The notes: generated from the sequence alone by a model not told the origin. Counted from the first letter of the stretch, positions 2,520 to 55,126 are shown. The stretch: 64,000 nt of DNA from Rhizobium sp. Q54 (GCA_945861155.1 CAMATN010000004.1:3237-67236), one strand, 5' to 3'. Made by a program: numbers and translations.

Positions 2520-3830
2520 TCACGACAGGTGATCGCGCACGGATTGTGCCGCCAGCCCGCCGATGCCCCAGAACGCGAGTGCAAGCAGCGCGAGGGTGCC
2601 GAGCGATCGCCAGCGACGGGGATAGATCGCTTCTTCCGGCAGGCTCGGCGGAATGAAGCTGGCGATAAAGACATGCTGGCGATCGGCCGTGGCGCGGGCC
2701 TGGTCGACCCCGCGCAGCGCGAGCTGGTAGGCCGCCTCGGCGAATTTCCGCGTGCTCTCCAGCTGTTCGTAAGCGCCGAGGGTCCGCGACAGCGTGTCGG
2801 GACGCGTCTTGTCCGGATCGGTCAACTCATCGGACAGGATTCGCCGCTGGGCCTCGAGCGATTTGATACGCGCGGTCAGAACCTTGATCGAGGGCGCATC
2901 GTCGCGCATGTAGCGCTTCAGCGTCGCCCGTTCGGCGTTCGCCCGAATCAGTTCGTCGCGCAGCCGGGTCGCGAGGAGCCCGGTCGCCTCGGCTGTCCTC
3001 GCCGGGTCGATCATCCCCTCCCGGTCGCGGAATGCGCGGATCTCTCCGAGTACCGATTTGAGCCGGGTTTCGGCTTGCGCCAACTCCGCCTCGGCGCGCT
3101 GCGCTCCGTCGCGCCGCGCCCGCCGCGACAGCTCGTTGACCAGCTTTTCGCAAGACGCGACGATCGCCTCGGACAGGCGCAGCGCGTCGGCCGGCGCAAA
3201 GGCGCGGACTCGGACCGTGACCGAGCCGTAGGCCGGGTCGTAAAACGGATCGACCTGCCCCTTCCAGTACCGCACCAGCGCTTCGATCGAGGCTGGAATC
3301 GTCAACCCCGACCACCAATCGGCCTGCGGCGGCGAGAAAAACCGACGAAGGTCGAGCGTCGCGTCGATCTCGTCGACGATCGCCCGGCTGGTGATGTACT
3401 GGACGACGATCTGCGACTCCAACGCCACCGGAGATTGGATCGGGTTGCCGGCGAAGAGCGACATCGGGTCGAAGCGCGGCGCGTCGACGCTGTTGAGCGT
3501 AAAGCGGAACTCCGCGACGTACTGGTCGGCCGCGACGGCAAAATAATAGACGGACGCCGCGGCTATCGGCATCGCCACCAGCGCGGCAAACGACAGGACG
3601 CGCAACGACAGGAATCGCAGCGGCAGAATGCTCCAGGATGGGCGGCCGCCGGGACCGGCCGCGCGCTCGACCGCCAGCGGCGTGCGCAGGCCGCGCGCGC
3701 TTGGCACGAGCAGCCCGCCGGCCTGCGCCGGCAGGGCAGGCTCGGACGGAGTACCGACCGGTTGGTAATCCTCGGGCGATCGCGGCGCGGCCAACTCCGG
3801 CGCGCGCGTCAGTCGGGGCGCGAATCGCAT
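2520..3830 (-). CDS. kpsE: capsule polysaccharide export inner-membrane protein, KpsE/CtrB (PCP-3) type
   Basis: N-terminal TM segment (FAALVAMPIAAASVYYFAVAADQYVAEFRF), a long coiled periplasmic region and a C-terminal TM. It lies directly downstream of kpsT. I chose the ATG at 3830 (MRFAPRL) rather than the ORF maximum at 3932. It overlaps the kpsT stop by 22 nt. Confidence 0.7.
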   Translation of the reverse strand: MRFAPRLTRAPELAAPRSPEDYQPVGTPSEPALPAQAGGLLVPSARGLRTPLAVERAAGPGGRPSWSILPLRFLSLRVLSFAALVAMPIAAASVYYFAVAADQYVAEFRFTLNSVDAPRFDPMSLFAGNPIQSPVALESQIVVQYITSRAIVDEIDATLDLRRFFSPPQADWWSGLTIPASIEALVRYWKGQVDPFYDPAYGSVTVRVRAFAPADALRLSEAIVASCEKLVNELSRRARRDGAQRAEAELAQAETRLKSVLGEIRAFRDREGMIDPARTAEATGLLATRLRDELIRANAERATLKRYMRDDAPSIKVLTARIKSLEAQRRILSDELTDPDKTRPDTLSRTLGAYEQLESTRKFAEAAYQLALRGVDQARATADRQHVFIASFIPPSLPEEAIYPRRWRSLGTLALLALAFWGIGGLAAQSVRDHLS

Positions 3831-4492
3831 GAGGGCGGCTCCGCGAGGGTGCGCCGATAGTACTGGAACGCGCTCGCGACATCGTCGAACAGCTGCAAGC
3901 GGCCGCCCGCGAGAACGGCTGCGCGATCGCAATACTGGCGTATCGTATGGTGATTATGGGTCGCGAGGATGACGTCGGAGCGCCGCAGACGCTCGCGAAA
4001 CGCAGCCGCGCATTTGCGGCGAAAGCGCTCGTCGCCGATCTCCGTTATCTCGTCGATCAGATAGACGTCGAAATCGATCGCCAGGCAGGCGCCGAAGGCG
4101 AGCCGCGCCCGCATTCCGGCCGAATAGGTGTTGACGGGCATCTCGAAATAATCGCCGAGTTCGGCGAATTCATCGACAAAATCGGTCGTCTGGCGCACCC
4201 CGGCGCCGTACACCCGGGCGATGAACGCGACATTTTCGCGGCCCGACAGGGCGCCGTGGAAGGTGCCGCCAAACCCGAGCGGAAACGACACGAGGACATC
4301 GCGGCGAATGGCGCCGCGATCGGGCATCTCGGACCCCGCCAGCAACCGGATCAGGGTCGACTTGCCGGAGCCGTTGGCCCCGAGGATGCCGATATTATGG
4401 CCGGACGGAAAATCGACGGTCGTATGGTCAAGGAGGAGCCTGCGGCCGGAGGCGGTCTTGTAGGTCTTCACGACGCCTTCGAGGGCGATCAC
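3809..4492 (-). CDS. kpsT: capsule polysaccharide export ABC transporter ATP-binding protein
   Basis: Walker A GANGSGKST, signature YSAGMRARL, Walker B YLIDE. Collinear with E. coli KpsT as I recall it. The GTG start overlaps the kpsM stop (GTGA). Confidence 0.9.
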   Translation of the reverse strand: MIALEGVVKTYKTASGRRLLLDHTTVDFPSGHNIGILGANGSGKSTLIRLLAGSEMPDRGAIRRDVLVSFPLGFGGTFHGALSGRENVAFIARVYGAGVRQTTDFVDEFAELGDYFEMPVNTYSAGMRARLAFGACLAIDFDVYLIDEITEIGDERFRRKCAAAFRERLRRSDVILATHNHHTIRQYCDRAAVLAGGRLQLFDDVASAFQYYRRTLAEPPSCDSRPD

Positions 4493-5060
4493 AACGGCGC
4501 GCTCAACTTGCGGTGCGACAAGCGGTGCAGCGCGAGCCCGCCCAGGAGCGCCAGGATCGCAACGACGACCAGGTACGATTGGTCAAGCCAATGCGGCTGG
4601 TAGCTCGCGAAGAACCCGGCGCGGAACCAGTCGATCGCATGCAATAACGGGTTCCACACGAGGATCTCCCGCGCCCACTCCGGCATCATTCCCGGCACAT
4701 AGAAAATGCCCGAAATGAAATACAGAACGCGGGTCAACTGTCCGTAGATCTTTTCCCATGACCGCCAGAACACGGTGACGACGGCGTTGATACAGCCGAT
4801 CCCGCAACCCAACGCCGCGATAACCAGCAGCGCCATCGACGGCGCCCACCAATCATCCGGCATCGCCGCCATGCCGATCGCCGCGAACCCCGCCAGCAGG
4901 ATTACCGCGACAATGATGTCGGTCGTGACTTCGAGGATGCCGCGCGCGGCGATCACATCGAACGTCGTGACCCGCGGCAGTTGCAGCAGCGGCGCATTAC
5001 CGACGATGGCATGGCTCATCCCGCTGCTGGCGTGGACGAACACATGATAGGGAATGAGGC
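4489..5060 (-). pseudogene. kpsM: 3-prime fragment of kpsM (ABC-2 capsule export permease), cut by the IS insertion
   Basis: Multi-TM ABC-2 sequence (…TGLIPYHVFVHASSG…WNPLLHAIDWFRAGFF…). The first 8 residues of ORF 4489..5088 are encoded by the IS end. The true N-terminus lies at 11964..12171. Confidence 0.85.
5053..5060. repeat. 8-bp target-site duplication, left copy (AATGAGGC)
   Basis: Identical octamer at 11956..11963, each directly abutting a terminal inverted repeat. Confidence 0.85.
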
Positions 5061-5083
5061 CGGTATTATGGCGCAAATGGGAC
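5061..5083. repeat. left terminal inverted repeat CGGTATTATGGCGCAAATGGGAC
   Basis: Perfect reverse complement of 11933..11955. Confidence 0.9.
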
Positions 5084-5162
5084 CACACGATCTGGTGCTT
5101 GAAACCCCGCCTCAGTAGCTACATATAGTGAGGCGATCCTAAAATGCCCGTGGCCTTTGCTC

Positions 5163-5996
5163 ATGCGCACGAACTATCGAACGATTGCCCGACAGGCATT
5201 GAAGCGGGCCAGAGCCGAAACAGCGAGCGGTGATCCCGAGCGGCTTGCCTACGCGGCTCTCGAATTGCGGAACGCACTGGAAGCGGTGACGTATGACAGG
5301 GCACAACTATATAAGGACGAGGTTTCCGCCGACGTATATCGGACATGGCAGCCACGGAAGGTCATCAGATACATGGCCGAGATCGACCAGATGGTGTCTT
5401 TCAAAAGTTGGGAAGTATTGTTCAAGCCGCAGCACAAACCCGGCGAACCTGAGAACCGTTGGATTTCTTTCGGCACAGAGACCCTTCTGACTCAGAAGAA
5501 CCTCAAAGATCACTATGATGCCTTGGGGAGTTTCCTACACGTTCCTACCCCTCATCAAATTGCCAACAATAAAGAGCCAGACAATGAACGTCTTAGAGAA
5601 CACTGCGAAGAATGTATTGCCATTCTCGACAGAGTTCTGAAATCTCCTGTATCCAAGGTCACGTTCAGTGTGTCTTCCAAAGGGGAATGTCAGCGATGTG
5701 GTCATATTGTCATAAAGCGAACCCCACCGAACTCAACAGTACCTTTTGAAGCTCGTTGTTTCGAGTGTGGTGCCGGATACGTGGTGACGCATGAGGGTCC
5801 AAATACAGTGAGATGGATTCCAAAAACATGTCCGATAGGATGTCAAACTCCCGGCTGCGACCAGGAAATAGAGCTATGGGAGGACGAGATTCGGCCTGGT
5901 GTCACATGGGACTGCGAGGGGTGTGGGGAAAGCTATGCGCTCCATCTAAGGATAATGCAGAAAATCAGAACTGACATAGGGACGGTCGAAACATGA
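5163..5996 (+). CDS. hypothetical protein: helical N-domain plus tandem zinc ribbons (cargo gene A)
   Basis: ORF 5157..5996 starts at a TTG; the first ATG is at 5163. The C-terminal third has several Cys pairs (CQRCGH, CFECG, CPIGC..CDQE, CEGCG). Its stop overlaps the next start (ATGA). Confidence 0.6.
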   Translation: MRTNYRTIARQALKRARAETASGDPERLAYAALELRNALEAVTYDRAQLYKDEVSADVYRTWQPRKVIRYMAEIDQMVSFKSWEVLFKPQHKPGEPENRWISFGTETLLTQKNLKDHYDALGSFLHVPTPHQIANNKEPDNERLREHCEECIAILDRVLKSPVSKVTFSVSSKGECQRCGHIVIKRTPPNSTVPFEARCFECGAGYVVTHEGPNTVRWIPKTCPIGCQTPGCDQEIELWEDEIRPGVTWDCEGCGESYALHLRIMQKIRTDIGTVET

Positions 5997-6529
5997 TTAA
6001 ATTGGTATTGGTGTGGAGTGGGGTGGCACTCGGCGGGGTTATTCTGATCGCGGTGTATTGGAACTTTTCACCGACCAATACGGCTAAACAGAATCTTGGC
6101 ACGTTTGGTCTCCTTGGAGATTGGTCATTCGATTGCGCTAGTAAGGGACGGACAACGTTTACCGCGCCATTTTTCGGTAATCCCACTGGCATTTCGACTG
6201 ATGGCAATGAAAACACATATTCAGCGGCGGAGATTAAATCCGCTACAAGGCTCACCGACGACAAACTCAAAATCGTATCTCTGATTACGAAGGTGCCGGA
6301 CGCAAATAAGAAGAACGATGCCGCTCGACAAGAAGGTGAGATTTGGCAAACGGTTTATGAACGAATTGGCAAGAAGATGCGGGTTATGGAGATTGAACGA
6401 GAAGATGGAAAGAAAGTCGTGGTCAAGAACGGTTATTTTTACGAAACCCGCGAAGGAAAAGAGCCGACAAAGACCACTAATTTCGCACTTTTCCTTGAAA
6501 AGTGTCTCAACTGGCACTGTTGCCATTGA
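5993..6529 (+). CDS. hypothetical membrane-anchored protein (cargo gene B)
   Basis: N-terminal TM helix LVLVWSGVALGGVILIAVYW followed by a Lys/Glu-rich soluble domain. Translationally coupled to gene A. Confidence 0.6.
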   Translation: MIKLVLVWSGVALGGVILIAVYWNFSPTNTAKQNLGTFGLLGDWSFDCASKGRTTFTAPFFGNPTGISTDGNENTYSAAEIKSATRLTDDKLKIVSLITKVPDANKKNDAARQEGEIWQTVYERIGKKMRVMEIEREDGKKVVVKNGYFYETREGKEPTKTTNFALFLEKCLNWHCCH

Positions 6530-6612
6530 TCTGACCGCACAGCGTCAGTAATGAAGGAGTTCTTTTTCGTATATAGTAGTGTAACGTTTTTCAGTTGAGG
6601 GAGGGTAATCAA

Positions 6613-6984
6613 ATGCCCCACATTGAATCTCTATACGAGGTTGAGTTCGGTGATGTTGCAGACGGCGGTGCCAGCTACCGTAATGGCGGCGAATTCGTCC
6701 TGGAAGCCAACCGAATTTTCGGCGGCGATAGCGGCTATTACTACAACGGCACGTTCTCATGCGATGGTGAACAGATCGCAGCCGACGTGAAGATCGTCAA
6801 ACACAACCCGAATTGGGGCAATGCATTTGGCGATGCTGCACAATCTTTCAATGTGCGGCTCCAAGGAACCGTCAACAACACCGTGATCGAAGGCTCTATG
6901 GAAAGGCTGGATCGACCGGGAATACGTTTGCCGGTCAGGTTGACATGGAAAGAAGATCTTCCCTGCGAGATACCGCCACCATAA
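6613..6984 (+). CDS. GrlR-like small beta-barrel protein (cargo gene C)
   Basis: The ATG at 6613 has a strong SD (GAGGGAGGG). The pattern LYEVEF..G....GGEFVLEANRIFGGDSGYYYNGTF...DG.QIAADVKIVKHN resembles the GrlR family as I recall it. Not verified. Confidence 0.5.
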   Translation: MPHIESLYEVEFGDVADGGASYRNGGEFVLEANRIFGGDSGYYYNGTFSCDGEQIAADVKIVKHNPNWGNAFGDAAQSFNVRLQGTVNNTVIEGSMERLDRPGIRLPVRLTWKEDLPCEIPPP

Positions 6985-7010
6985 CGAGAGGATTATGAAC
7001 GGAGAGGAAT

Positions 7011-7952
7011 TTATTGCAGATCAGGCGCGTATGACCAACCATTCTTCTCGGTTTTGACCCAACGGCAAGCACTGGTATTTGAGATTTCATGGTGTCGTGC
7101 GGCACTTGCACAGGTCGGAAACGGGCCATCCGGCGTGTTGACAGCCCGGTGGTTGTGATCTTTCGGCGAGAGGATGAATTTCTCGACGACGACATGGGCG
7201 TAAATATAGCGATGTTTGATACCCCACACGGTAGGAACAGATACTCCATATTGGGCACTGATTTCCTTGTAATATCGGGCGTCAGCACAGATCGCTCGAA
7301 TGTCGTCATCCGATAAGTTACCCATCTGGTGTCCTTTCTGGAATGATGCGCGCGGTCGGATGAACACTTCCTCGCAATATACATGATCATAGGCAAGTCC
7401 ATGCTTGATACGTTGGACCATCGAAGCTGTGATATCGTACTGCTCGCCGATTTCTCTGTATAATCGTTTATCTACACAAACCGCGCGAATTTCCTCGTCA
7501 GATAATTTTCCAGGAGTCCCGAACTCACCAAGTAAGATACGGAGATTTATGCGTGTTCGCGCCGCCGCCTTATATTCCTCTGATCGATGGGTTCCCAATA
7601 CCGCCTCCTGAGCCGCAGCTATCGAGGTAATTCGTTGAAGTCGGCGTTTTGGGTGGTTGGACGAGCACCGCTTGCTGCAAAACTGTCGTTTAGCAAAGGT
7701 CGTAATTTGTTCTTTCTGGCGTCGTACAAGGGACTTTTGGCATAATGCACAATGTCTATCGGGCACAACCCGTCTGTGGCCGTGCCCCGCACATCGCACG
7801 TTGCAATATTTTCGTCTTATGTAGAAATAACGATATTCGTTCCAACGTTGGACGAGTTTCTTCTGACAGAAAGCACACTGTCGGTCATCGTCAACGATAA
7901 TCTGTTTCCGTCCCATTTTCCCTATTCTCTTTTGAGAACGATGAGGGAGCAC
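7011..7952 (-). CDS. modular DNA-binding protein: 2x Cys4 zinc finger, 2x HTH repeat, NUMOD1-like C-terminus (cargo gene D)
   Basis: GTG start. Internal duplications: CAFCQKKLV..YCNVRC with CALCQKSLV..FCSKRC, and LSDEEIRAVCVDKRLYREIGEQYDITASMVQRIKHGLAYDHV with LSDDDIRAICADARYYKEISAQYGVSVPTVWGIKHRYIYAHV. C-terminal GPFPTCASAARHHEISNTSACRWVKTEKNGW. Confidence 0.65.
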   Translation of the reverse strand: MLPHRSQKRIGKMGRKQIIVDDDRQCAFCQKKLVQRWNEYRYFYIRRKYCNVRCAGHGHRRVVPDRHCALCQKSLVRRQKEQITTFAKRQFCSKRCSSNHPKRRLQRITSIAAAQEAVLGTHRSEEYKAAARTRINLRILLGEFGTPGKLSDEEIRAVCVDKRLYREIGEQYDITASMVQRIKHGLAYDHVYCEEVFIRPRASFQKGHQMGNLSDDDIRAICADARYYKEISAQYGVSVPTVWGIKHRYIYAHVVVEKFILSPKDHNHRAVNTPDGPFPTCASAARHHEISNTSACRWVKTEKNGWSYAPDLQ

Positions 7953-7973
7953 TGCCCCCTCATTGTGTCCAGG

Positions 7974-8885
7974 TCAAGCAGCTTTCCGAGTTTCAACGTC
8001 CCCGAAAGGCCAGTCTGCTTCGCCCAGACCGTATTGCTCAACAATGTGCAGCCACCGGTTGAACGTTTCTTGCAAGAGATCGCGACGCTGCCGGGCCGGC
8101 ATCGCGTCAAGCCATGCTGCGTCCTTCTCCGCTTGAACATCATCGACCGAGAGGTCGGGCTTACCATCCCGATAGGTTTGCACGAGGCATGCTCGTGCGT
8201 GCTCAACGCCGAGACCGGCGGGTCGACTTACCGGCATAAACATCCGCTGGTCGAGCATGGGGTACGCCAGATCGCCGAGGAACTCCATCACCTTCTTCCC
8301 GGACACCCGCGATGTTCTGGTTGTCGTGGAAGGCTCGATTGGTGGTGTATCTGATGGCTTGCGACCGTTGAGTGGGAACCGCTCTCGCAACTGCTCGATT
8401 AGATCGTCAACCGTATTCTCTAAACAGAGCCGCAGAATTTCCTTCACATGCTGCGGGTGCTGCATAACCCACGGGACCGCCTTACGAGCCTTCGTAAGTC
8501 CGCCCGACTGAGCGATCAGATCGACGATCTCGGGGTCGTTGAACTTCGCGTAGGCGTCGTAGACATCTACGCGGGTGAGGATGTCATTCCGCGTGTAGCA
8601 ACGGTGCGGGAATCGTTGCTGCACAAAAAATATGAAATGGTCCACGGTTACAATCGGGGACTTGATGCCCGCCATCCATTCGGTCGGGCGATGATATAGG
8701 CTCGAAAAGAAATAGCAGCTTTCCCATAGGTAGGTCGCATAATTGCTAACAGAAGAATCGAGTGCATTACACAATTCGTCGAGAGTTATTTTGCTGGCGT
8801 CAGCTTTAACGCCGACGCGTGGCACAGGGTTGTTGATGAATATACGCTTGGACACTGAAATCTCTCCTTTATAATCCGCCGACAA
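7974..8885 (-). CDS. hypothetical protein, 303 aa (cargo gene E)
   Basis: TTG start. It lies 21 nt upstream of gene D on the same strand. No motif recognised. Confidence 0.55.
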   Translation of the reverse strand: MSADYKGEISVSKRIFINNPVPRVGVKADASKITLDELCNALDSSVSNYATYLWESCYFFSSLYHRPTEWMAGIKSPIVTVDHFIFFVQQRFPHRCYTRNDILTRVDVYDAYAKFNDPEIVDLIAQSGGLTKARKAVPWVMQHPQHVKEILRLCLENTVDDLIEQLRERFPLNGRKPSDTPPIEPSTTTRTSRVSGKKVMEFLGDLAYPMLDQRMFMPVSRPAGLGVEHARACLVQTYRDGKPDLSVDDVQAEKDAAWLDAMPARQRRDLLQETFNRWLHIVEQYGLGEADWPFGDVETRKAA

Positions 8886-8959
8886 TCGTTGGATAATCTG
8901 GATATAGTCCAGAGACCAATCTTCATCAAGGGCAGGAGAGGACTTTTAACGAGGCGACT

Positions 8960-9277
8960 TTAACCTTGCTCTGGTATGCCGGCGCGCATTCTGTTGATTT
9001 TCTGCCGAACCTCAATGAGCTTATGTTTTATATCGGGCTGGACGGAAATACCTGTTCCATTTCCATATTCGTCCGTCTGAAAAGTCACGCCGACTTCCTC
9101 GAATATTTTGCGTATATGTTCGAGGATGACTGGCATCGTCTTACGCTTTCCTTTTTCCAAATCTTTAATCGTAGACAAGCCGACATTAGACAAGTCCGCC
9201 AGATCCTCCTGGCTCCATCCCAGCCATGCGCGGGCCGCTCGGCACTGTTCGCCGGTTATCGGTGCGTCATCTGGCAT
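8960..9277 (-). CDS. XRE-family helix-turn-helix transcriptional regulator (cargo gene F)
   Basis: ITGEQCRAARAWLGWSQEDLADLSNVGLSTIKDLEKGKRK is a classic XRE HTH. The ORF maximum reaches the GTG at 9319; I prefer the ATG at 9277 (MPDDAPITG…) by analogy with homologues. Confidence 0.7.
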   Translation of the reverse strand: MPDDAPITGEQCRAARAWLGWSQEDLADLSNVGLSTIKDLEKGKRKTMPVILEHIRKIFEEVGVTFQTDEYGNGTGISVQPDIKHKLIEVRQKINRMRAGIPEQG

Positions 9278-9347
9278 CTCATACTCGCAAACATCCTTAA
9301 CAGTCCCGGAATCTAGCACCCGTTCAGGCTGACTTCAACCATTTCAG

Positions 9348-9384
9348 TTGACCAACGCCGCCGTGTCAGCTAATATCGCTGACA
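9348..9384 (+). promoter_or_regulatory. sigma70-like promoter with overlapping palindromic operator upstream of the transposase
   Basis: TTGACC (9348-9353), a 17-nt spacer and TAATAT (9371-9376), 22 nt before the ATG at 9398. TGTCAGC (9364-9370) and GCTGACA (9378-9384) form a 7-bp inverted repeat bracketing the -10. Confidence 0.45.
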
Positions 9385-9397
9385 TAGGCCACAACGG

Positions 9398-10408
9398 ATG
9401 ACGCAACACTTCCTCATATCCCCCGCAGCGCGGACGCTCTCAGTCCGTCAAGTCGCCAGAATGACCGATGAGGAAGCCTTCGATATCTTCCGCACTATCC
9501 GCTTTGCCGCCAATGGTGGCGAGCCGTTCTGCCCTCACTGCGGTTGCCCAAAGATCTACCAGCTAAACGAGACGCCAATCCGCTGGAAATGCGCCGATTA
9601 CCGCGATTGCGGAAAGAAATTCTCGGTCACGTCGGGCACCCTCTTTCACTCCCGTAAGCTGCCGATCCGCGACTACCTCGCCGTCATCGCCCTATTCGTG
9701 AACGGCGTCAAAGGTGTCGCCGCGCTCCACCTGTCGAGGGACATGAACATCCATTTCAAGTCGGCTTTCGTGCTGCTCCACAAGCTGCGCGAGGCGATGG
9801 GTGCTGAGGTTCATGGGGTTGACCAGCTTGGCGGTCCCGATGAGCCGGTCGAGATCGACGGCACCTATATCGGTGGCGATGTCCGCGCCCCCAACCAGGA
9901 AGCCGATAAGCAACAGGACTGGTGGAAGGCCAGGAAGGGCAAGACGGAGAAAAACACCGTCTCCATCGTGGTCGCCCGGGAACGGACGGGCAGGGCTATT
10001 CCTTGGGCCGTGCCGAGCGAGCGTGATGCGGTCGAGATTATCCGTGCTCACGTCGCGCCGGGCACGACCATTCACGCCGACCAGGGCCAGCATTGGAACA
10101 GCCTGCGCCGCACGCATCCGATGATGCGGGTCAATCACCAGATCGAAAAGCGGGCCGATAATGGCGCGAACATCAATCAGGCCGAGAGTTATTACGCCCG
10201 CTTGAAACGCGCCGAGTTCGGCATTTACCACCGCATCGCCGGGCATAAGAACTCCAAGACCCAAGCCTACGCCGACGAAATGGCGTGGCGGGAAAATCGC
10301 CGCCGTCAGGCCAATGGCACTCATTGGACGGCGATTACGACGCTCGCCCTGACGCTCCCCAAGAGCATCAGGTGGGCGGGTTATTGGCATCCCCGCGTAG
10401 CGGTGTAA
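9398..10408 (+). CDS. IS1595-family (ISXO2-like) DDE transposase
   Basis: N-terminal zinc ribbon (CPHCGCPKIY…WKCADYRDCGKKFSVTSGT), then a DDE-type core (VEIDGTYIGG … IHADQGQHWNS … NINQAESYYARLKR). 336 aa is the typical size. Confidence 0.85.
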   Translation: MTQHFLISPAARTLSVRQVARMTDEEAFDIFRTIRFAANGGEPFCPHCGCPKIYQLNETPIRWKCADYRDCGKKFSVTSGTLFHSRKLPIRDYLAVIALFVNGVKGVAALHLSRDMNIHFKSAFVLLHKLREAMGAEVHGVDQLGGPDEPVEIDGTYIGGDVRAPNQEADKQQDWWKARKGKTEKNTVSIVVARERTGRAIPWAVPSERDAVEIIRAHVAPGTTIHADQGQHWNSLRRTHPMMRVNHQIEKRADNGANINQAESYYARLKRAEFGIYHRIAGHKNSKTQAYADEMAWRENRRRQANGTHWTAITTLALTLPKSIRWAGYWHPRVAV

Positions 10409-10452
10409 TGCCTTCGGCAGCATCCCCGAAACCAGAACAGGAGGACAGCAGT

Positions 10453-10926
10453 ATGAGCGATGATGGCAGCAACCACCAGTCCAACAAGATCACGTCGAAC
10501 GAGTTGATTCGGCGTCGAAAAGATTTGATCTTCGAGATTGCCGAGGATGAGAAGTCGCTTCAACGCAAACGAGACATTCTTTTTCATATTACTGACACGA
10601 TTAAAGCGATTGATCCGAGGGTTAGATTGGAAGCAATACCCGCACGGCATCGGCGCGGAACGAAATCACCATACTTTGCGCATGGTGAGATTAGTGGATT
10701 TATTTATGATGCCGGTCGAGAGGGTGCGGATCACACATTTACCAGCAATGAGGTTGCGACATTGGCGATGCGTGCTAAAAGTCTTGACCCCGAAACGAAG
10801 CTCGCCGAGTTCAAGGATTTCGAGAACCGGATACGCCTGCAACTCAACGCGATGCGGCGCGATCAGACTGTTGAGAAGCTGGATGGTCGTGGTCGCGAGG
10901 CGCGCTGGCGTCTGTTGAAAACCTGA
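10453..10926 (+). CDS. hypothetical coiled-coil plus probable winged-helix protein (cargo gene H)
   Basis: The ATG at 10453 follows AGGAGGA (10439-10445). The C-terminus (…VEKLDGRGREARWRLLKT) looks wHTH-like. An intrinsic terminator follows. Confidence 0.6.
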   Translation: MSDDGSNHQSNKITSNELIRRRKDLIFEIAEDEKSLQRKRDILFHITDTIKAIDPRVRLEAIPARHRRGTKSPYFAHGEISGFIYDAGREGADHTFTSNEVATLAMRAKSLDPETKLAEFKDFENRIRLQLNAMRRDQTVEKLDGRGREARWRLLKT

Positions 10927-10950
10927 TCGTCGCTATCAGTCCACACCGAG

Positions 10951-10986
10951 AAAAACAAGCGAAGCAGATTGCCTCGCTTGTTTTTT
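10951..10986 (+). terminator. rho-independent terminator after cargo gene H
   Basis: AAAAACAAGCGA … TCGCTTGTTTTT forms a 12-bp stem with an 11-nt loop and ends in a T-run. Confidence 0.7.
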
Positions 10987-11001
10987 GATCTATATGGTTA
11001 A

Positions 11002-11026
11002 TATCCCTATCCGGTTAAGAACAGGT
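11002..11026. repeat. internal inverted repeat, left copy (TATCCCTATCCGGTTAAGAACAGGT)
   Basis: The reverse complement recurs at 11870..11893: 16 nt perfect plus ACAGGT after a 1-nt indel. Confidence 0.7.
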
Positions 11027-11171
11027 AAATAGGACAGAACATATAATTTGAGAGCGACGGTGATGCTGATAAGAAACAAGGAAATGTCAGGTGTTATTTA
11101 CGATTTACCCGAACTATGTGGTTCGAGAGACATTAAAATGCTCTCGATAGTTAGATTGATCGGAGAGGGGG

Positions 11172-11399
11172 CTATGGTATTTCCGCGAGGTCTTTCCCAA
11201 ACTGAGTTAGTTGAGCCGCCGCAACCTGTTCATCGTTTTTGAGGTCTCCCGTCCAGGGAACACTAACTTCTATTGTCGGAGCAATCGTCGAACCGGACGT
11301 GATCTTGTAGATGAATGTCGCTACCGGAATTGTTTGTCCGGTCGTCGTATCGGTCCCTGCCCCGAATTCGATGCGTAATATCTCTCTGACCATCGTCAT
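11172..11399 (-). CDS. hypothetical 75-aa protein (cargo gene I)
   Basis: ORF only. It lies inside the module bounded by the internal inverted repeats. Confidence 0.35.
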   Translation of the reverse strand: MTMVREILRIEFGAGTDTTTGQTIPVATFIYKITSGSTIAPTIEVSVPWTGDLKNDEQVAAAQLTQFGKDLAEIP

Positions 11400-11489
11400 C
11401 CCGCACCCTCCGGTCGCAAGCCGCCGACAAGCTCGGCATAGGTGATCGTGCGCCGCGATACCGCCCGACGCAAGACGAAGGTATCCAAC

Positions 11490-11774
11490 TCAAGAATTGT
11501 GGCGTTCTGCTAGATAAACATTCCTTTGATAAATTACCGCAGACGGTGATACATCTAATGCCCGCGCTATATCTGAGGGAATATGTCCTGCATCTAGCCA
11601 TTCTCGTAGTTTAGCGACACCAAACTCCGTTAGCCGCATTCCGTCTTTGACAGCTTTGACAGGTTGGTCGGCCTCCGCATTGGTGGCGTTTTCAGCCATC
11701 GCACGCAGGGATATCAGCTTCTCTCTGAGCCGTTCTAAATCATCGAGAGCAGCGGTGATGAGAGCGAGTGTCAT
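11490..11774 (-). CDS. small HTH protein, 94 aa (cargo gene J)
   Basis: SD AGGAGA before the ATG. C-terminal HTH-like GHIPSDIARALDVSPSAVIYQRN. A perfect TTGACA -35 lies upstream. Confidence 0.5.
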   Translation of the reverse strand: MTLALITAALDDLERLREKLISLRAMAENATNAEADQPVKAVKDGMRLTEFGVAKLREWLDAGHIPSDIARALDVSPSAVIYQRNVYLAERHNS

Positions 11775-11799
11775 GGGACCATCTCCTTTTTATGATCCC

Positions 11800-11829
11800 A
11801 TTTTAATATCAATGTTAAATATATGTCAA
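11800..11829 (-). promoter_or_regulatory. sigma70-like promoter for cargo gene J
   Basis: On the minus strand: TTGACA (11829-11824), an 18-nt spacer and TAAAAT (11805-11800), about 25 nt upstream of the start at 11774. Confidence 0.4.
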
Positions 11830-11869
11830 CACATATCTCGTCCCCACTCAAACGCCCACAAAATCCCGA

Positions 11870-11893
11870 ACCTGTGCTAACCGGATAGGGATA
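11870..11893. repeat. internal inverted repeat, right copy
   Basis: ACCTGTGCTAACCGGATAGGGATA is the reverse complement of the 11002..11026 motif. Confidence 0.7.
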
Positions 11894-11932
11894 ATGGTTA
11901 AATATGTATAGCCTGTGATGGCGAAATATTTA

Positions 11933-11955
11933 GTCCCATTTGCGCCATAATACCG
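11933..11955. repeat. right terminal inverted repeat GTCCCATTTGCGCCATAATACCG
   Basis: Perfect reverse complement of 5061..5083. Confidence 0.9.
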
Positions 11956-11963
11956 AATGAGGC
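11956..11963. repeat. 8-bp target-site duplication, right copy (AATGAGGC)
   Basis: Identical to 5053..5060. Confidence 0.85.
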
Positions 11964-13353
11964 CGGTGTAATAGAAGACGAAGAAATGCGTGCCGATCGG
12001 CGGCCGGCTTTGCATCAATACGGCGAAGGTCGCCGACAACAGCGCGATGTGCAGGACGGGCTCGATCAGCGCCCAGCCATAGCCCAGCCGCGATTCGGCG
12101 TACCGGGTCCGGGTCTCGCGGATGATCAGGGCGCGGATCACCCGGCGCTGACTGCGCAGACGGTCGAGCACGCCGGGAGCGGGGCGCCGCTTCCGCGGTG
12201 GTCTGCCCGCGCCGTCGGCGAGCACGACGTACTCGCCGTCGATCGTGTCGAGACGGTGATTGAGCAGGTGCAGCACGGCCTCGGCCGACGGCCGGTCGTC
12301 CGGAAAATTGTGCAGCAACTCGCCGCCGGCAACCGTCGCCTGCCTTGTCAGGCCGGCGGCGAGGTAGAGGCTCAATTGCGCGCGCTTGATGTCGCTGCCC
12401 GTCGGATCGAGCGCGCCGGCGCGCTCGAATGCCAGCGCGGCACCGGACAAATCGCCAAGCCGCCACAGCAAATGCCCGCGATGCAGGTGGTATTCGGCGA
12501 CATCGGGTGCGCCGGCGAGGGCGCGGTCGATCGCGGCGAGCGCCGCCTCCCAGTTTCCCCGCAGCATCTGCGCCGTAGACAATACCCGCAGCAGCCGCGG
12601 GTCGGCGGCAGTTGCTGCAGCCGACGATGCGGCGCGCCCGAGAAGCTCGGCGGCCTCGTCCGCCCGGTCGCAGCGCATCAGCAATTCCGCGGCATCGACG
12701 AGGATGCGGTTGTCGCCGGGCGCCAGATCGACCGCGCGCAAAATCAGCGCGGCGGCCTCTTCGCCCTGGCCAAGCGCATGGCGCGCCGCGGCCAGGTCGC
12801 ACAGCGCGCGCACATTGTCGGGTTCCGCCGCGACCGAACGAGCGAGATAGCGCAGGGCCGCGTCATCGTGTCCCGCCGCGAGCAGCAGGACCCCGGCATG
12901 ATGGGCGAATTCGGGATTCGCGGGCGCCCGCTCGCTCGCCGCAGCCGCATGCGCGATCGCCTCGTCGATCCGTCCGATCGCCGCGAGCGAGGCGCTGGCG
13001 TGCCGATGGCCCTCGATCCAGTCCGGACACAGCTCGATCAGCCGGACATAGACCGAAGCCGCAACGTCATGACACGCGCAGTTGCTGAACACCCACCCGC
13101 AGATCGCCAGCATCGCCAAATCGTCGCCCGCCGCCGGCAAGGCGCGCGACACGCATTCGAGCGCCGTCTCGCGCCGTCCGTCGTGCAACAGCGCTTCGGC
13201 CAGCCGGCAATTCAGTCCCGCGTCGAGATCGGCGACGGCGTTGGCTCGTCTGACATAATGGAGACACGCATCGAGGTCCCGCCGGTGGAGCGCCGACAAG
13301 AACGAATCAGCATCAACTACTCGTTGAAGGAGAAGATTATCTGTTTGTCTCAA
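11964..13353 (-). pseudogene. kpsM: 5-prime part of the disrupted gene: TPR-repeat region (about 390 aa) in frame with the KpsM N-terminus
   Basis: …RRVIRALIIRETRTRYAESRLGYGWALIEPVLHIALL… matches the KpsM N-terminal signature (E. coli LFLREIRTRFGKFRLGYLWAILEP). Upstream in the same frame are Ala/Leu-rich TPR-like repeats with no stop. An internal GTG at 12171 would give a 259-aa KpsM once rejoined. Confidence 0.8.
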
Positions 13354-53857: not shown

Positions 53858-55126
53858 ATGATCGCTCTCGACCTGTCACGGCTCTTGTCGCGCGCCGGGC
53901 GGGGCACCCCGACCGGGATCGATCGCGTCGAACTCGCCTATGCCGAGCACCTGATCGCGAGTGGTGCGCCGGCCTCGTTCACGGCGGTCGGCGCCCACGG
54001 CGGACTCGCCTTGCTGACCCGGCGGATAGCCGACGACTTCGTCGCCGAGATCGGCGCCGCTTGGCGTGGCGGGAGCGATTCCCTGGCGCAAATGGGACAG
54101 GACCGGCGCGTCCGCCAGCTCGCGCGGCACGCCCGGATGGCGCTCCTCGCCGGAAGCGGGCGGGTGCTGCTGTCGCGGCTGCGCGCCAGCGCCGCGCCGC
54201 CGGTCTATTTGCTGGTGTCGCACCACCACCTCGAAAAGCGCCGGCTGATTGCGCGCCTCAAAGAACGCAGCCCGGCGCGTTTCGTCTGCCTGATCCACGA
54301 TCTGATACCGATCGAGTTTCCCGAATACGCCAAGCCCGGCCAGGCCGAACACCATCTCCGCCGGATCGAGACGGCGGCCCGGTTCGCCGACGCGCTGATC
54401 GTCAACTCGGCGGTGACGCGCGAGGCGCTGCAGCCGCATCTCGATCATGCCGGGCGCAACCCGCCGGTTCTGGTCGCGCCGTTCGGCGCCGATTTGCCGC
54501 CGGCGTCGCGCGCCGAGGGGCCGCCCTTCGAACGGCCGTATTTTGTTTATGTCAGCACGATCGAAGCCCGCAAGAACCACCTGCTGCTGCTCAATGTGTG
54601 GCGCCGGCTGGCGACGGAAATGGGCGATCGCGCGCCGCTGTTGGTGCTGGTCGGGCAGCGCGGCTGGGAGACCGAGAATGTCGTCGATATGCTCGATCGC
54701 TGTCCGGCACTGCGCGGCTCGGTGATCGAACACAACACTTTGCCCGATGCGGCGATGGTGGGGCTGCTCAAGGGCGCCTGCGCGTTGCTGCTGCCGTCCT
54801 TCGCCGAGGGTTTCGGGTTTCCGCTGATCGAAGCGCTGCAACTCGGCGTCCCGGCGCTGTGCAGCGACATCGCCGCGTTGCGCGAGACCGGCGACACGGT
54901 CCCGGAATTCCTCGACCCGCTCGACGGGCCGGGCTGGCGCACCGCGATCCTCGACTACGCGACGCCGGGCTCGCCCCGACGCGCGGCTCAGCTCACCCGT
55001 CTTGCGGGCTGGGACCCGCCTCGCTGGGACGCCCATTTCGCCATCGTCGACCGCTTCATCGCGGCGGCCGCCGGCAACCCCCGTCCCGATCGGCAATCGA
55101 CGACGTGTGTTGCTCAGGCGACCTGA
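53858..55126 (+). CDS. glycosyltransferase family 1/4
   Basis: …YFVYVSTIEARKNH…LLLPSFAEGFGFPLIEALQLGVPALCSD (E-x7-E region). Confidence 0.8.
   Translation: MIALDLSRLLSRAGRGTPTGIDRVELAYAEHLIASGAPASFTAVGAHGGLALLTRRIADDFVAEIGAAWRGGSDSLAQMGQDRRVRQLARHARMALLAGSGRVLLSRLRASAAPPVYLLVSHHHLEKRRLIARLKERSPARFVCLIHDLIPIEFPEYAKPGQAEHHLRRIETAARFADALIVNSAVTREALQPHLDHAGRNPPVLVAPFGADLPPASRAEGPPFERPYFVYVSTIEARKNHLLLLNVWRRLATEMGDRAPLLVLVGQRGWETENVVDMLDRCPALRGSVIEHNTLPDAAMVGLLKGACALLLPSFAEGFGFPLIEALQLGVPALCSDIAALRETGDTVPEFLDPLDGPGWRTAILDYATPGSPRRAAQLTRLAGWDPPRWDAHFAIVDRFIAAAAGNPRPDRQSTTCVAQAT

What the first reader, a model, noticed from the sequence alone, without database searches (positions are those of the whole stretch)
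5053..11963. 6.9-kb IS1595-family cargo transposon inserted cleanly into kpsM
Seen in the sequence:
- Perfect 23-bp terminal inverted repeats: CGGTATTATGGCGCAAATGGGAC at 5061-5083 and its reverse complement at 11933-11955.
- Each repeat abuts an identical octamer, AATGAGGC (5053-5060 and 11956-11963).
- Deleting 5061-11963 (6903 nt, a multiple of 3) rejoins the two gene halves in frame as …FVFYYTGLIPYHVFVHASSG….
- The interior is visibly AT-richer (sampled lines 38-55% GC against about 65% in the flanks).
- It encodes one transposase with an N-terminal zinc ribbon and a DDE core, plus nine other ORFs on both strands.

Established knowledge: IS1595-family elements generate 8-bp duplications. 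From my memory of the ISfinder family table, one subgroup (ISNha5-like) reaches several kb by carrying passenger genes.

Inference: this is a recent single-step insertion, since the TSD and IRs are undegraded. None of the cargo looks like resistance or housekeeping genes, so this is the most likely place in the window for an undescribed mobile-element-borne system.
Basis: partly seen in the sequence, partly recalled or inferred. Interest (0 to 1): 0.85.

Follow-up and report, generated by a model that had tools for sequence, protein, structure and literature searches.

The report
Cargo transposon hitting a capsule-gene hotspot
A 6.9-kb IS1595-family "transporter" insertion sequence has split a capsule-export permease gene, and relatives of it have hit the same nucleotide position of that gene independently in many soil bacteria, which points to target-site choice not reported for this family in the papers searched here.

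Summary
Perfect 23-bp inverted repeats (5061-5083 / 11933-11955) and an 8-bp duplication AATGAGGC bound a 6895-bp element. It carries one IS1595 transposase and nine other ORFs. Removing it restores a TPR-KpsM ABC-2 permease gene.

It is a transporter IS of the ISNha5 type. The core is an XRE regulator, the transposase and a winged-helix accessory protein.

The cargo is not a coherent system. None of it recurs in related elements, o5 has no detectable homologue, and o9-o10 sit in a separate nested 892-bp cassette with its own repeats and duplication.

The unexpected result concerns the target. Diverged relatives (transposase 52-89% identical, different repeat tips, different cargo) sit at exactly the same kpsM codons (T-G|L-I|P-Y) in diverged hosts. 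They occur in both orientations, each with a perfect duplication specific to its lineage. About 40% of the 120 closest KpsM homologues are truncated there. Interrupted and intact alleles are interleaved on the tree. A sister IS type uses a second, similar site in the same gene.

This is best explained as sequence-directed target choice, probably amplified by selection for capsule loss. The mechanism is inferred, not shown.

The parts
5053..5060 (.). left copy of the 8-bp target-site duplication AATGAGGC (kpsM sense strand GCCTCATT, codons G-L-I)
5061..5083 (+). left terminal inverted repeat, CGGTATTATGGCGCAAATGGGAC
   Evidence: The same 23-mer ends related elements in metagenomes.
5163..5996 (+). 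o1, 277 aa. N-terminal helical domain with weak HEPN-like fold, plus two C-terminal CxxC zinc ribbons. Member of a large unannotated family.
   Evidence: 782 representative clusters at E<=1e-3. Invariant L33 R36 E40 Y44 W62 Y118 H126 and 8 Cys. Model pLDDT 92.8. HEPN hits have probability up to 0.97 but E>=0.04. No Pfam, PDB or PADLOC hit.
5993..6529 (+). o2, 178 aa, with an N-terminal hydrophobic helix. Overlaps the o1 stop by 4 nt, so probably the same operon. Function unknown.
   Evidence: only a weak PADLOC PDC-M16A hit, E 0.0023
6613..6984 (+). o3, 123 aa, function unknown
   Evidence: (weak phrog_2483, E 0.0012)
7011..7916 (-). o4, 301 aa, Cys-rich repeats plus several helix-turn-helix motifs. 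Putative DNA-binding protein.
   Evidence: HTH_28 at 25.4 bits (cut-off 25) and HTH_23. Matches the DNA-binding part of phrog_59.
7974..8855 (-). o5, 293 aa, orphan
   Evidence: Only itself found among 5.8 billion proteins. No family hit.
8960..9277 (-). o6, XRE-type HTH regulator, divergent from the transposase gene. Part of the conserved core.
   Evidence: PF01381 at 2.5e-8. Homologues lie next to the transposase in L011, L026 and L035.
9398..10408 (+). IS1595-family DDE transposase, 336 aa, with an N-terminal zinc ribbon
   Evidence: Promoter-like TTGACC-17-TAATAT at 9348-9376.
10453..10926 (+). o8, 157 aa, conserved accessory protein. About 50-residue N-terminal helix plus a C-terminal winged-helix fold.
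   Evidence: Homologues accompany the transposase in L005, L006, L007, L011, L026, L033-L037 and L041. Model pLDDT 78.7. Forkhead/H1/Zalpha hits have probability 0.95-0.99 and E 0.01-0.2.
10951..10985 (.). 16-bp stem hairpin after o8, terminator-like
   Evidence: (I7)
10994..11901 (.). Nested non-autonomous cassette of 892 bp (11002-11893). It has perfect 16-bp terminal inverted repeats TATCCCTATCCGGTTA and an 8-bp duplication ATGGTTAA (10994-11001 / 11894-11901).
   Evidence: I6; 2 matches, 0.16 expected. Relative L012 has only about 115 nt between the o8 stop and the right repeat.
11172..11399 (-). o9, 75 aa, inside the nested cassette. Function unknown.
11490..11774 (-). o10, 94 aa, weak HTH/DNA-binding similarity, inside the nested cassette. 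Promoter-like TTGACA-18-TAAAAT lies upstream at 11829-11800(-).
   Evidence: (phrog_664, 9.8e-5)
11933..11955 (-). right terminal inverted repeat
11956..11963 (.). right copy of the 8-bp target-site duplication
4489..5060 (-). C-terminal part of the split TPR-KpsM permease gene. An in-frame GTG at 5088 inside the left repeat gives the leader MWSHLRHNT.
11956..13353 (-). N-terminal part of the split gene (TPR repeats, first membrane segments). It reads on into the right repeat as ...GLI-RYYGANGTK...
4702..4709 (.). Second kpsM hot spot (codons S-G|I-F|Y-V). Empty in this window, occupied by the sister IS type in relatives.
   Evidence: L033 and L011. Proteins P0078, P0107, P0114 and P0120 end ...SGIF-RYYVA...

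Best explanation
The element is a 6895-bp transporter IS of the IS1595 family, ISNha5-like.

Its mobile core is two identical 23-bp terminal repeats, a zinc-ribbon DDE transposase, a divergently transcribed XRE regulator (o6) and a small coiled-coil plus winged-helix accessory protein (o8). Everything else is exchangeable passenger DNA of lower GC. That includes a separate 892-bp cassette (o9-o10) that inserted into the element with its own repeats and duplication.

The transposase cut the host TPR-kpsM gene with an 8-bp stagger at codons Gly-Leu-Ile inside a membrane helix. This splits the permease of the capsule/polysaccharide ABC exporter and presumably abolishes export (inferred).

The site is not accidental. 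This IS lineage repeatedly chooses ...TAyTAyACCG|GCCTCATy|CCnTAyC... in kpsM. A sister lineage chooses the similar ...TTCCG|GCATCTTC|TAC... 116 codons downstream. Both flanks of the target resemble the repeat tips (CGGTATTAT, or CCCTATTCC in one lineage).

My proposal is that the transposase, possibly helped by o8, docks on this repeat-tip-like pseudo-palindrome. Selection for loss of capsule export then raises the frequency of such insertions.

Shown: anatomy, family, repeated independent same-site insertion. Inferred: the recognition mechanism, the loss of capsule and the role of o8.
For: Anatomy and family.

Conserved core versus variable cargo. A minimal 1.7-kb two-gene relative sits on a Skermanella plasmid.

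Perfect 8-bp duplications bound seven complete related elements; an eighth (L007, AAGGCTTG) was read by eye from the same output.

Same-site insertions with lineage-specific perfect duplications (kpsM sense strand):
- window: GCCTCATT
- L026: GGCTGGTG, repeat tip CCCTATTCC
- L035: GCCTCATC, opposite orientation
- L011+L034: GCCTCGTC, though these two junctions come from two contigs of one sample and I did not test that the contigs join
- single junctions in L012, L015, L024, L025 and L031

Frequencies:
- 3 of the 10 distinct repeat junctions found in JGI metagenomes are this site.
- 51 of the 120 best KpsM homologues start at the site (at least one, P0133, is probably only a contig-end fragment).
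- 19 of those carry a leader peptide encoded by diverged repeats: WSHLRHNT, WSHLRPNT, WRLLPNT, NLLHNA....

Independence of events:
- Interrupted and intact alleles are interleaved, with at least 31 state changes on the tree against 38.6+-2.8 for shuffled labels.
- A 176-aa fragment is 99.4% identical to an intact allele.
- Transposase and KpsM identities are incongruent: L035 78%/57%, L026 52%/63%.
- dN/dS is 0.13-0.33 between interrupted alleles, the same range as against the intact allele L030 (0.18-0.31), at dS 0.4-2.3.

Sequence dependence:
- The clade with TGII (ATC in place of the CTN Leu codon) is almost never interrupted, 1 of about 28.
- In L011 the second site was used twice. The B element's duplication AAAAATGC directly abuts an older repeat remnant.
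Against: - No experiment. The recognition mechanism is inferred from about ten junctions.
- Elements of the same lineage also sit at unrelated sites with no evident motif (L005 beside a tRNA gene, L006 after a dksA-like ORF (my reading of the translation), L013, L014, L016, L019, L022, L023). Specificity is therefore a strong preference, not absolute.
- Most of the 176/184-aa fragments are classed as interrupted from protein starts alone. DNA was checked for only two (window, L025).
- The resemblance between target flanks and repeat tips is 6-8 of 9-10 bases and could be coincidence.
- ISNha5 itself could not be compared, because ISfinder was not available.
Confidence: 0.8

Rival explanations
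1. One ancient insertion. The element entered kpsM once in an ancestor and has been inherited vertically, so the shared position is shared ancestry and not targeting.
For: Transposase and KpsM divergence are of the same order in some pairs (window vs L011/L034: 86-89% and 75%). A decayed copy exists (L025: transposase pseudogene, one repeat lost), so some insertions are old.
Against: - The two copies of the duplication are identical within each locus but differ between loci (GCCTCATT, GGCTGGTG, GCCTCATC, GCCTCGTC).
- Both orientations occur (window and L026 versus L035).
- Transposase and host identities are incongruent.
- Interrupted and intact alleles are interleaved.
- The split halves show purifying-selection signatures.
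- A near-identical intact/interrupted pair exists.
Confidence: 0.04
2. Selection only. The elements insert more or less at random. kpsM knock-outs are strongly favoured (for example escape from capsule-dependent phages or a cost of capsule), so they are the ones seen.
For: IS knock-outs of capsule genes do accumulate under selection in other bacteria (wbaP in Klebsiella, PMC5001619). Both hot spots lie in the same gene. Further elements pile up in already broken copies (L011, L035).
Against: Selection alone would favour hits anywhere in kpsM, kpsT or kpsE. Here the breaks fall at two single-nucleotide positions with related sequence ([AT]CCG|GC[CA]TC[AT]T[TC]). The TGII clade, which has the same gene, is spared. 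In L011 the same 8 bp was reused next to an existing repeat end.
Confidence: 0.1
3. The cargo (o1-o5, o9-o10) is a coherent, undescribed element-borne system such as phage defence or toxin-antitoxin, and delivering it is the point of the element.
For: - Cargo of relatives includes a PADLOC defence candidate (PDC-M32A, 3.5e-121, L007), a SocA/Panacea antitoxin (L006), a DUF2779/Cas4-like nuclease (L011), NYN (L005) and DUF2130 (L037).
- o1 has a weak HEPN-like fold.
- Operon-like arrangement: o1-o2-o3 and o6-o5-o4.
Against: - None of the window's cargo genes recurs in any related element.
- o1 relatives on plasmids and short contigs do not show o2/o3-like neighbours by gene size and annotation; this was not tested by sequence.
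- o5 is an orphan.
- There is no significant PADLOC hit.
- o1 lacks the Rx4-6H HEPN motif.
- GC and contig-break patterns indicate a patchwork.
Confidence: 0.12
4. Reversible switch. The insertion is one state of an on/off capsule switch, with frequent precise excision restoring kpsM, as IS492 does for exopolysaccharide in Pseudoalteromonas.
For: Precise removal restores the reading frame. Near-identical intact and interrupted alleles coexist. States are interleaved on the tree. The IS492 precedent is cited in PMC2536512.
Against: No excision junction, circle or mixed-population read evidence was available. DDE cut-and-paste elements normally leave the duplication behind. The interleaving is equally explained by repeated insertion. 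Decayed copies (L025, L033) show that many insertions are permanent.
Confidence: 0.12

Closest known systems
ISNha5 subgroup of the IS1595 family ('transporter IS', Siguier, Gagnevin & Chandler 2009)
   Same: - IS1595-type zinc-ribbon DDE transposase
- 8-bp duplication
- several-kb length caused by passenger genes
- passenger transcription regulators (PMC11891212)
- repeat tip CGGnnTT (from my memory of ISfinder)
   Different: No target preference is described for this group, to my knowledge and in the papers searched. Here there is a nucleotide-precise hot spot in kpsM, a conserved winged-helix accessory gene, and a nested non-autonomous cassette. Direct comparison with ISNha5 was not possible.
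IS492 (IS110 family) in the eps locus of Pseudoalteromonas atlantica, and IS insertions in capsule genes generally
   Same: A mobile element sits at a defined site in a surface-polysaccharide gene and switches production off (PMC2536512). IS knock-outs of capsule genes are selected (PMC5001619).
   Different: IS492 uses a DEDD recombinase, a 5-bp site and high-frequency precise excision within one species. Here a DDE IS1595 transposase makes 8-bp duplications, carries cargo, and the same site is hit across many diverged hosts. Reversibility is untested.
Site-specific DDE transposons with a dedicated target selector (Tn7 with TnsD at glmS, and Tn7-like elements)
   Same: A DDE element repeatedly found at one conserved position of a conserved host gene in many hosts. 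It carries variable cargo, some of it defence-like, and encodes a small DNA-binding accessory protein.
   Different: There are no TnsABC/TniQ homologues. Tn7 inserts downstream of glmS without damaging it, whereas this element destroys its target gene. Both orientations are used, and the preference is not absolute.
IS elements that target sequences resembling their own ends or host repeats (IS30 repeat targeting; IS1397/ISKpn1 in REP; IS4321/IS5075 in Tn21 repeats)
   Same: Target flanks resemble the element's own terminal repeat. In L011 the new insertion lands exactly next to an existing repeat end.
   Different: Different transposase families. Here the mimic is a protein-coding motif (YYTGLIPY) of a housekeeping-type transporter. 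The comparison rests on my own knowledge (IS4321/IS5075 are cited in the reference list seen).
IS1016 (IS1595 family) flanking the Haemophilus influenzae cap locus, with the IS1016-bexA deletion
   Same: An IS1595-family element associated with ABC capsule-export genes (bexA/bexB are counterparts of kpsT/kpsM). This is from my own knowledge and was not checked here.
   Different: IS1016 is about 0.7 kb without cargo and forms a compound transposon around the whole locus. It shows no site-specific interruption of the permease gene.

Membership tests
IS1595 family | DDE transposase of the ISXO2/IS1595 type | tested here: met
   PF12762 at 1.3e-30 over 150 of 153 profile positions. NF033547 at 121 bits against a cut-off of 75.
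IS1595 family | N-terminal zinc-ribbon domain in the transposase | tested here: met
   PF12760 at 1.4e-8, 35 bits against a cut-off of 25.4
IS1595 family | terminal inverted repeats and an 8-bp target duplication | tested here: met
   23/23 repeats and 8/8 duplication. Perfect 8-bp duplications also bound six related complete elements; a seventh (L007) was read by eye from the same output.
ISNha5 subgroup (transporter IS) | length of several kb due to passenger genes, including transcription regulators | tested here: met
   6895 bp with nine passenger/accessory ORFs, three to four of them HTH proteins. Relatives are 3.3-6.8 kb. The definition is partly from PMC11891212 and partly from memory.
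ISNha5 subgroup (transporter IS) | repeat tip CGGnnTT (ISfinder table, from memory) | tested here: met
   The tip is CGGTATT. Some same-site relatives have CCGTATT or CCCTATT.
ISNha5 subgroup (transporter IS) | transposase clusters with ISNha5 rather than ISNwi1, ISPna2 and the other subgroups | not testable with these tools
No Nitrobacter record appeared among the plasmid hits.
KpsM-type ABC-2 capsule export permease (the target gene) | ABC2_membrane domain, adjacent cognate ABC ATPase, orthologues intact across the break | tested here: met
   PF01061 at 3.3e-10 over 406-614 of the rejoined protein. ATPase gene at 3809-4492(-). 69 homologues span the site, many named capsular polysaccharide transport permease by JGI. 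The N-terminal TPR fusion is atypical for classical KpsM.
Tn7-like site-specific transposons | TnsA/B/C core plus a TnsD/TniQ target selector | tested here: not met
   No such domains were found in any ORF of the element.
Known anti-phage defence systems (PADLOC) | significant match of cargo proteins to defence-system models | tested here: not met
   Only generic HTH hits and one weak hit (PDC-M16A, E 0.0023)
HEPN domain (for o1) | four-helix HEPN fold with the Rx4-6H motif | tested here: inconclusive
   Fold hits to HEPN structures have probability up to 0.97, TM about 0.5-0.6 and E>=0.04. No Rx4-6H motif appears among the invariant residues.
Phase-variation IS (IS492-like behaviour) | frequent precise excision restoring the gene | not testable with these tools
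   This needs read-level or culture data. The only pointer is a near-identical intact/interrupted allele pair.

The most novel reading that the evidence does not exclude
This branch of IS1595 has evolved dedicated, sequence-specific targeting of a conserved coding motif (YYTGLIPY, and SGIFYVP for the sister branch) in the capsule-export permease gene. Targeting would be mediated by the transposase together with its winged-helix partner o8. The elements would then act as population-level capsule off-switches, possibly reversible, that at the same time bring in exchangeable defence or toxin-antitoxin-type cargo. That would be a cargo-carrying single-transposase DDE element homing to one site inside a gene, for which I know no precedent.
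Probability: 0.2. Interest if true: 0.85.

Novelty: new variant of a known kind. Interest (0 to 1): 0.62.

Why it matters
Simple DDE insertion sequences are usually treated as near-random mutagens. Strong target choice is known mainly for elaborate systems such as Tn7 and its relatives, or for other chemistries such as IS110/IS492 and IS200/IS605.

A one-transposase IS1595 lineage that hits the same nucleotide of a conserved gene across hosts would give a compact, testable model of target recognition. The model has only three parts: transposase, 23-bp ends and a 150-aa winged-helix partner.

It would also mean that capsule export in a widespread group of uncultured soil Alphaproteobacteria (Stellaceae-like) is routinely switched off by a mobile element. 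That bears on phage sensitivity, on soil polysaccharide production and on how metagenome bins are annotated, because many 'short KpsM' proteins in databases are IS-truncated fragments.

For the original claim, the result is sobering. The cargo is a patchwork of orphans, not a recognisable new system.

Tried and rejected
- ISfinder and TnCentral could not be queried. Siguier 2009 and the 2015 'Everyman's guide' are not held. ISNha5 is mentioned in only three held papers.
- The viral-contig scan for the repeat found nothing.
- Rfam found nothing in 4000-13000.
- PDB sequence searches for o1, o3, o4, o8 and for the o1 and o8 profiles gave nothing meaningful.
- The fold search of o1 against viral models gave nothing.
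- o5: no homologues at all.
- Context of o1 relatives on short contigs and two plasmids was uninformative.
- A possible internal repeat remnant at 7910-7925 (GTCCCATTTTCCCTAT) would have made the left cargo a separate unit. I rejected it: at 3 mismatches such matches occur at the chance rate (12 found, 12.2 expected).
- An exact 14-nt repeat core at 54085-54098 lies inside a long GC-rich ORF without a repeat tip or composition change. I judged it chance.
- Orientation-specific insertion was considered after three loci agreed, then rejected when L035 showed the opposite orientation.

Full report
**1. The observation**

- A perfect 23-bp inverted repeat (CGGTATTATGGCGCAAATGGGAC, 5061-5083 and 11933-11955) is the longest inverted pair in 4500-12500.
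- It is flanked on both sides by AATGAGGC.
- The direct repeat reads as 13 nt, because the target flank happens to continue like the repeat tip. Only an 8-bp duplication is compatible with symmetric ends.
- Removing 5061-11963 (6903 nt) yields a single 653-aa minus-strand ORF. It has TPR repeats in front of a PF01061 ABC-2 permease domain, and an ABC ATPase gene follows. JGI names the homologues 'capsular polysaccharide transport system permease'.
- GC is 0.47-0.61 inside against 0.62-0.73 outside.
- The same junctions occur in independent assemblies, so this is not an assembly artefact.

**2. What the element is**

ORF 9398-10408 is an IS1595-family transposase. It passes the curated cut-offs of Pfam (PF12762, PF12760) and NCBIfam (NF033547).

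I fetched relatives in genomes and metagenomes. All are bounded by related repeats, either CGGTATTA[T/G]GGCGCAAATGGGAC ('A type') or CGGTATTATGTAGCAAGC ('B type'). All complete ones have perfect 8-bp duplications.

Three genes recur:
- the transposase;
- a small regulator transcribed divergently from it (XRE in the A type, DUF6471 in the B type);
- a protein of about 150 aa like o8.

The predicted o8 structure is a roughly 50-residue helix followed by a winged helix. The model has pLDDT 78.7, and forkhead/H1/Zalpha folds match with probability 0.95-0.99 but E 0.01-0.2.

A 1691-bp element on a Skermanella rosea plasmid has only the transposase and an ORF that matches the o8 pattern by eye (N-terminal coiled coil plus C-terminal domain). 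A BLASTP against the window's o8 found nothing, so that link is tentative. It looks like the minimal form.

Length, the CGGnnTT tip, the 8-bp duplication and regulator passengers match what is described for the ISNha5 'transporter IS' subgroup. This rests on PMC11891212 citing Siguier 2009 and otherwise on my memory of ISfinder. I could not compare with ISNha5 itself.

**3. The cargo**

None of o1-o5, o9 or o10 is found in any of the related elements.

- o5 has no detectable relative among 5.8 billion proteins.
- o1 belongs to a large unannotated family, with 782 representative clusters.
  - It has invariant L33 R36 E40 Y44 W62 Y118 H126 and four CxxC pairs.
  - Its confident model (pLDDT 92.8) has an N-terminal helical domain that weakly resembles HEPN folds, and two zinc ribbons.
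  - The Rx4-6H motif is absent, and the relatives I looked at showed no obvious o2/o3-like neighbours (judged by gene size and annotation only).
- o4 is a multi-HTH, Cys-rich protein.
- o2 has an N-terminal hydrophobic helix, and o3 is small and unassigned.
- No cargo protein reaches a PADLOC model.

o9 and o10 lie in a nested unit.
- 11002-11893 has perfect 16-bp terminal inverted repeats (2 matches in the window, 0.16 expected).
- The direct repeat ATGGTTAA flanks it.
- A relative whose o8 is 82% identical has only about 115 nt where the window has about 1 kb.

Contigs of independent assemblies break at about 9330, the boundary between the cargo/XRE side and the transposase module. This fits a modular, patchwork element.

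Cargo of relatives includes a PADLOC defence candidate (PDC-M32A), a SocA/Panacea antitoxin, a DUF2779/Cas4-like nuclease, NYN and DUF2130. The family may therefore often carry conflict-type genes. For this window that is only a hint.

**4. The unexpected part: the insertion site**

A related contig (L011) aligned across the junction. Its kpsM is 80% identical, and it carries the identical 23-bp repeat at the same position.

A metagenome scan for the repeat gave 13 loci with 10 distinct junctions. Three of them are this kpsM position.

At DNA level the site is occupied in the window, L011/L034, L012, L015/L035, L024, L025, L026-29 and L031. The duplications, read on the kpsM sense strand, always cover G|GN-CTN-RTN|. 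They are perfect within a locus but differ between loci:

| Locus | Duplication (sense strand) |
|---|---|
| window | GCCTCATT |
| L026 | GGCTGGTG |
| L035 | GCCTCATC |
| L011+L034 | GCCTCGTC |

The L011+L034 pair comes from two contigs of one sample, and I did not test that they join.

Further features of these insertions:
- Repeat tips differ (CGGTATTAT, CGGTATTAG, CGGTATTCG, CCGTATTCG, CCCTATTCC).
- Cargo differs.
- L035 is in the opposite orientation.
- Transposase and KpsM identities are incongruent: L035 78%/57%, L026 52%/63%.

Among the 120 closest KpsM homologues, 51 start at the site; one of these (P0133) is probably only a contig-end fragment. Of these, 19 begin with a peptide that is the translation of a diverged repeat (WSHLRHNT, WSHLRPNT, WRLLPNT, NLLHNA...). 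Most of the others are exactly 176 or 184 aa long. I confirmed the 176-aa class by DNA in two cases (window, L025).

On a tree of the region all of these proteins share, interrupted and intact alleles need at least 31 state changes. Shuffled labels need 38.6+-2.8. One interrupted allele is 99.4% identical to an intact one.

dN/dS between interrupted alleles is 0.13-0.33 at dS 0.4-2.3, the same range as against the intact allele L030 (0.18-0.31). The genes therefore diverged under selection and were interrupted later.

A single ancient insertion is thus excluded.

**5. Targeting rather than selection alone**

- The breaks fall at single-nucleotide positions, not anywhere in the operon.
- B-type elements use a second position, S-G|I-F|Y-V (L033 duplication GCATCTTC, L011 GCATTTTT). 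Proteins ending ...SGIF-RYYVA.. mark the same site.
- The two targets are alike: [AT]CCG|GC[CA]TC[AT]T[TC].
- In L011 the B element's 8-bp target directly abuts the end of an older A-type repeat, so the same 8 bp was used twice.
- The clade whose motif is TGII (ATC instead of a CTN codon) is almost never interrupted, 1 of about 28.
- The flanks of site 1 (reverse complement of the left flank CGGTGTAAT/CGGTATAAT, right flank CCnTAyC) resemble the repeat tips of the elements found there. From this I propose that the transposase, perhaps with o8, docks on a repeat-tip-like pseudo-palindrome. This step is inference.
- The preference is not absolute. The same lineage also sits beside a tRNA gene, after a dksA-like ORF (my reading of its translation) and at other sites without an obvious motif.
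- Selection for capsule loss, documented for IS hits in other bacteria (PMC5001619), probably adds to the frequency. It would also explain why both hot spots are seen in this gene.

**6. Consequence for the host (inferred)**

The break lies within the second predicted membrane segment of the permease.

The N-terminal part runs on into the right repeat (...GLI-RYYGANGTK...). The C-terminal part can only start from codons inside the left repeat (GTG at 5088).

Export through this ABC transporter is therefore presumably lost. Whether the insertion reverts is unknown. The IS492 precedent for exopolysaccharide switching (PMC2536512) makes this worth testing. Decayed copies (L025, L033) show that many insertions are permanent.

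**7. Comparison and novelty**

As an object this is a new member of a known kind: an IS1595 transporter IS of the ISNha5 type.

Three things are not described in the held literature I searched:
- the nucleotide-precise, cross-lineage hot spot in kpsM;
- the parallel second hot spot of the sister type;
- the conserved winged-helix partner.

I therefore rate it a new variant of a known kind. It works somewhat like site-preferring elements (Tn7-like, repeat-targeting IS) but is not a member of those families.

**8. Verdict**

- Observation: confirmed.
- Interpretation: partly supported. The element and family calls are right. The 'cargo system' expectation is not supported, and the element is a mosaic.
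- The real interest is the recurrent target. Interest is 0.62.
- Confidence is 0.8 in the overall explanation, about 0.95 for anatomy and family, about 0.8 for genuine target preference, and about 0.35 for the repeat-mimicry mechanism.

Noticed in passing
window 10994-11901: Nested 892-bp non-autonomous cassette (11002-11893). It has perfect 16-bp inverted repeats TATCCCTATCCGGTTA and an 8-bp duplication ATGGTTAA, and carries o9 and o10 with their own promoter-like site. The repeat resembles the CCCTATTCCGG tip of the L026-type IS.
   Followed up: partly
window 4702-4709 (empty); L033 10556-14092; L011 168-3639: Second kpsM hot spot (S-G|I-F|Y-V), used by a sister IS type with repeat CGGTATTATGTAGCAAGC. 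It is unoccupied in this window.
   Followed up: yes
L011 137-167 and 3615-4021: Pile-up of elements. An older A-type right-end remnant, then 8 bp (AAAAATGC), then a complete B element, then the same 8 bp, a 360-bp kpsM fragment, and another A-type element. The same 8-bp target was used twice.
   Followed up: partly
window 54085-54098: Exact 14-nt match to the repeat core GGCGCAAATGGGAC, inside a long GC-rich ORF that I read as glycosyltransferase-like from its translation (no family search run). There is no repeat tip and no composition change. My estimate of the chance of one such match in 128 kb is about 5e-4, yet nothing else marks it as an element end.
   Followed up: partly
L025 7469-9965: Fossil copy at the same kpsM site. 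One repeat is intact, the transposase is reduced to frameshifted fragments (9061-9925), and the other repeat is deleted.
   Followed up: partly
window ~9330-9334 (ends of contigs L003, L004, L010): Three independent assemblies break at the same point between the XRE gene and the transposase gene. Similarity to L011 starts at 9366. This looks like the boundary between a shared transposase module and exchangeable cargo.
   Followed up: no
window 5099-5130; L014, L017, L024 just inside the repeat: Shared motif about 40-50 nt inside the left end (TTGAwr - 17 nt - CATATAG, e.g. GCTACATATAGTG) in elements with unrelated cargo. It may be an inward promoter for the cargo. The consensus scan did not flag it.
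   Followed up: no
proteins P0038-P0105 (leaf order): KpsM alleles with TGII instead of TGL[IV] at the hot spot are almost never interrupted (1 of about 28). This acts as a natural mutant series for the target sequence.
   Followed up: partly
window 5163-5996 (o1) and P0146-P0295: o1 defines a large family (782 clusters at 50% identity) of proteins of about 270 aa. They have a conserved N-terminal helical (HEPN-like) domain and two zinc ribbons, with no Pfam or NCBIfam model.
   Followed up: partly
L036 4872-10912 and L034 1-7359: The kpsM N-terminal half lies inverted relative to its usual upstream neighbours (BTAD, DUF6065, EamA) in L036, compared with L034. This suggests an IS-mediated inversion at the locus.
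   Followed up: no
L007 12141-13379; L006 9175-9627: Related elements carry a PADLOC defence candidate PDC-M32A (E 3.5e-121) and a SocA/Panacea antitoxin next to a small ORF with a weak membrane-transporter hit.
   Followed up: partly
L005 8490-8570: The closest genome relative (Stellaceae MAG, transposase 63% identical) sits just downstream of a sequence that looks like a tRNA 3' end (…GGTTCGAATCC…CCA; no tRNA scan was run), not in kpsM. Its right flank (AGATATTCGGGC) again resembles a repeat tip.
   Followed up: no
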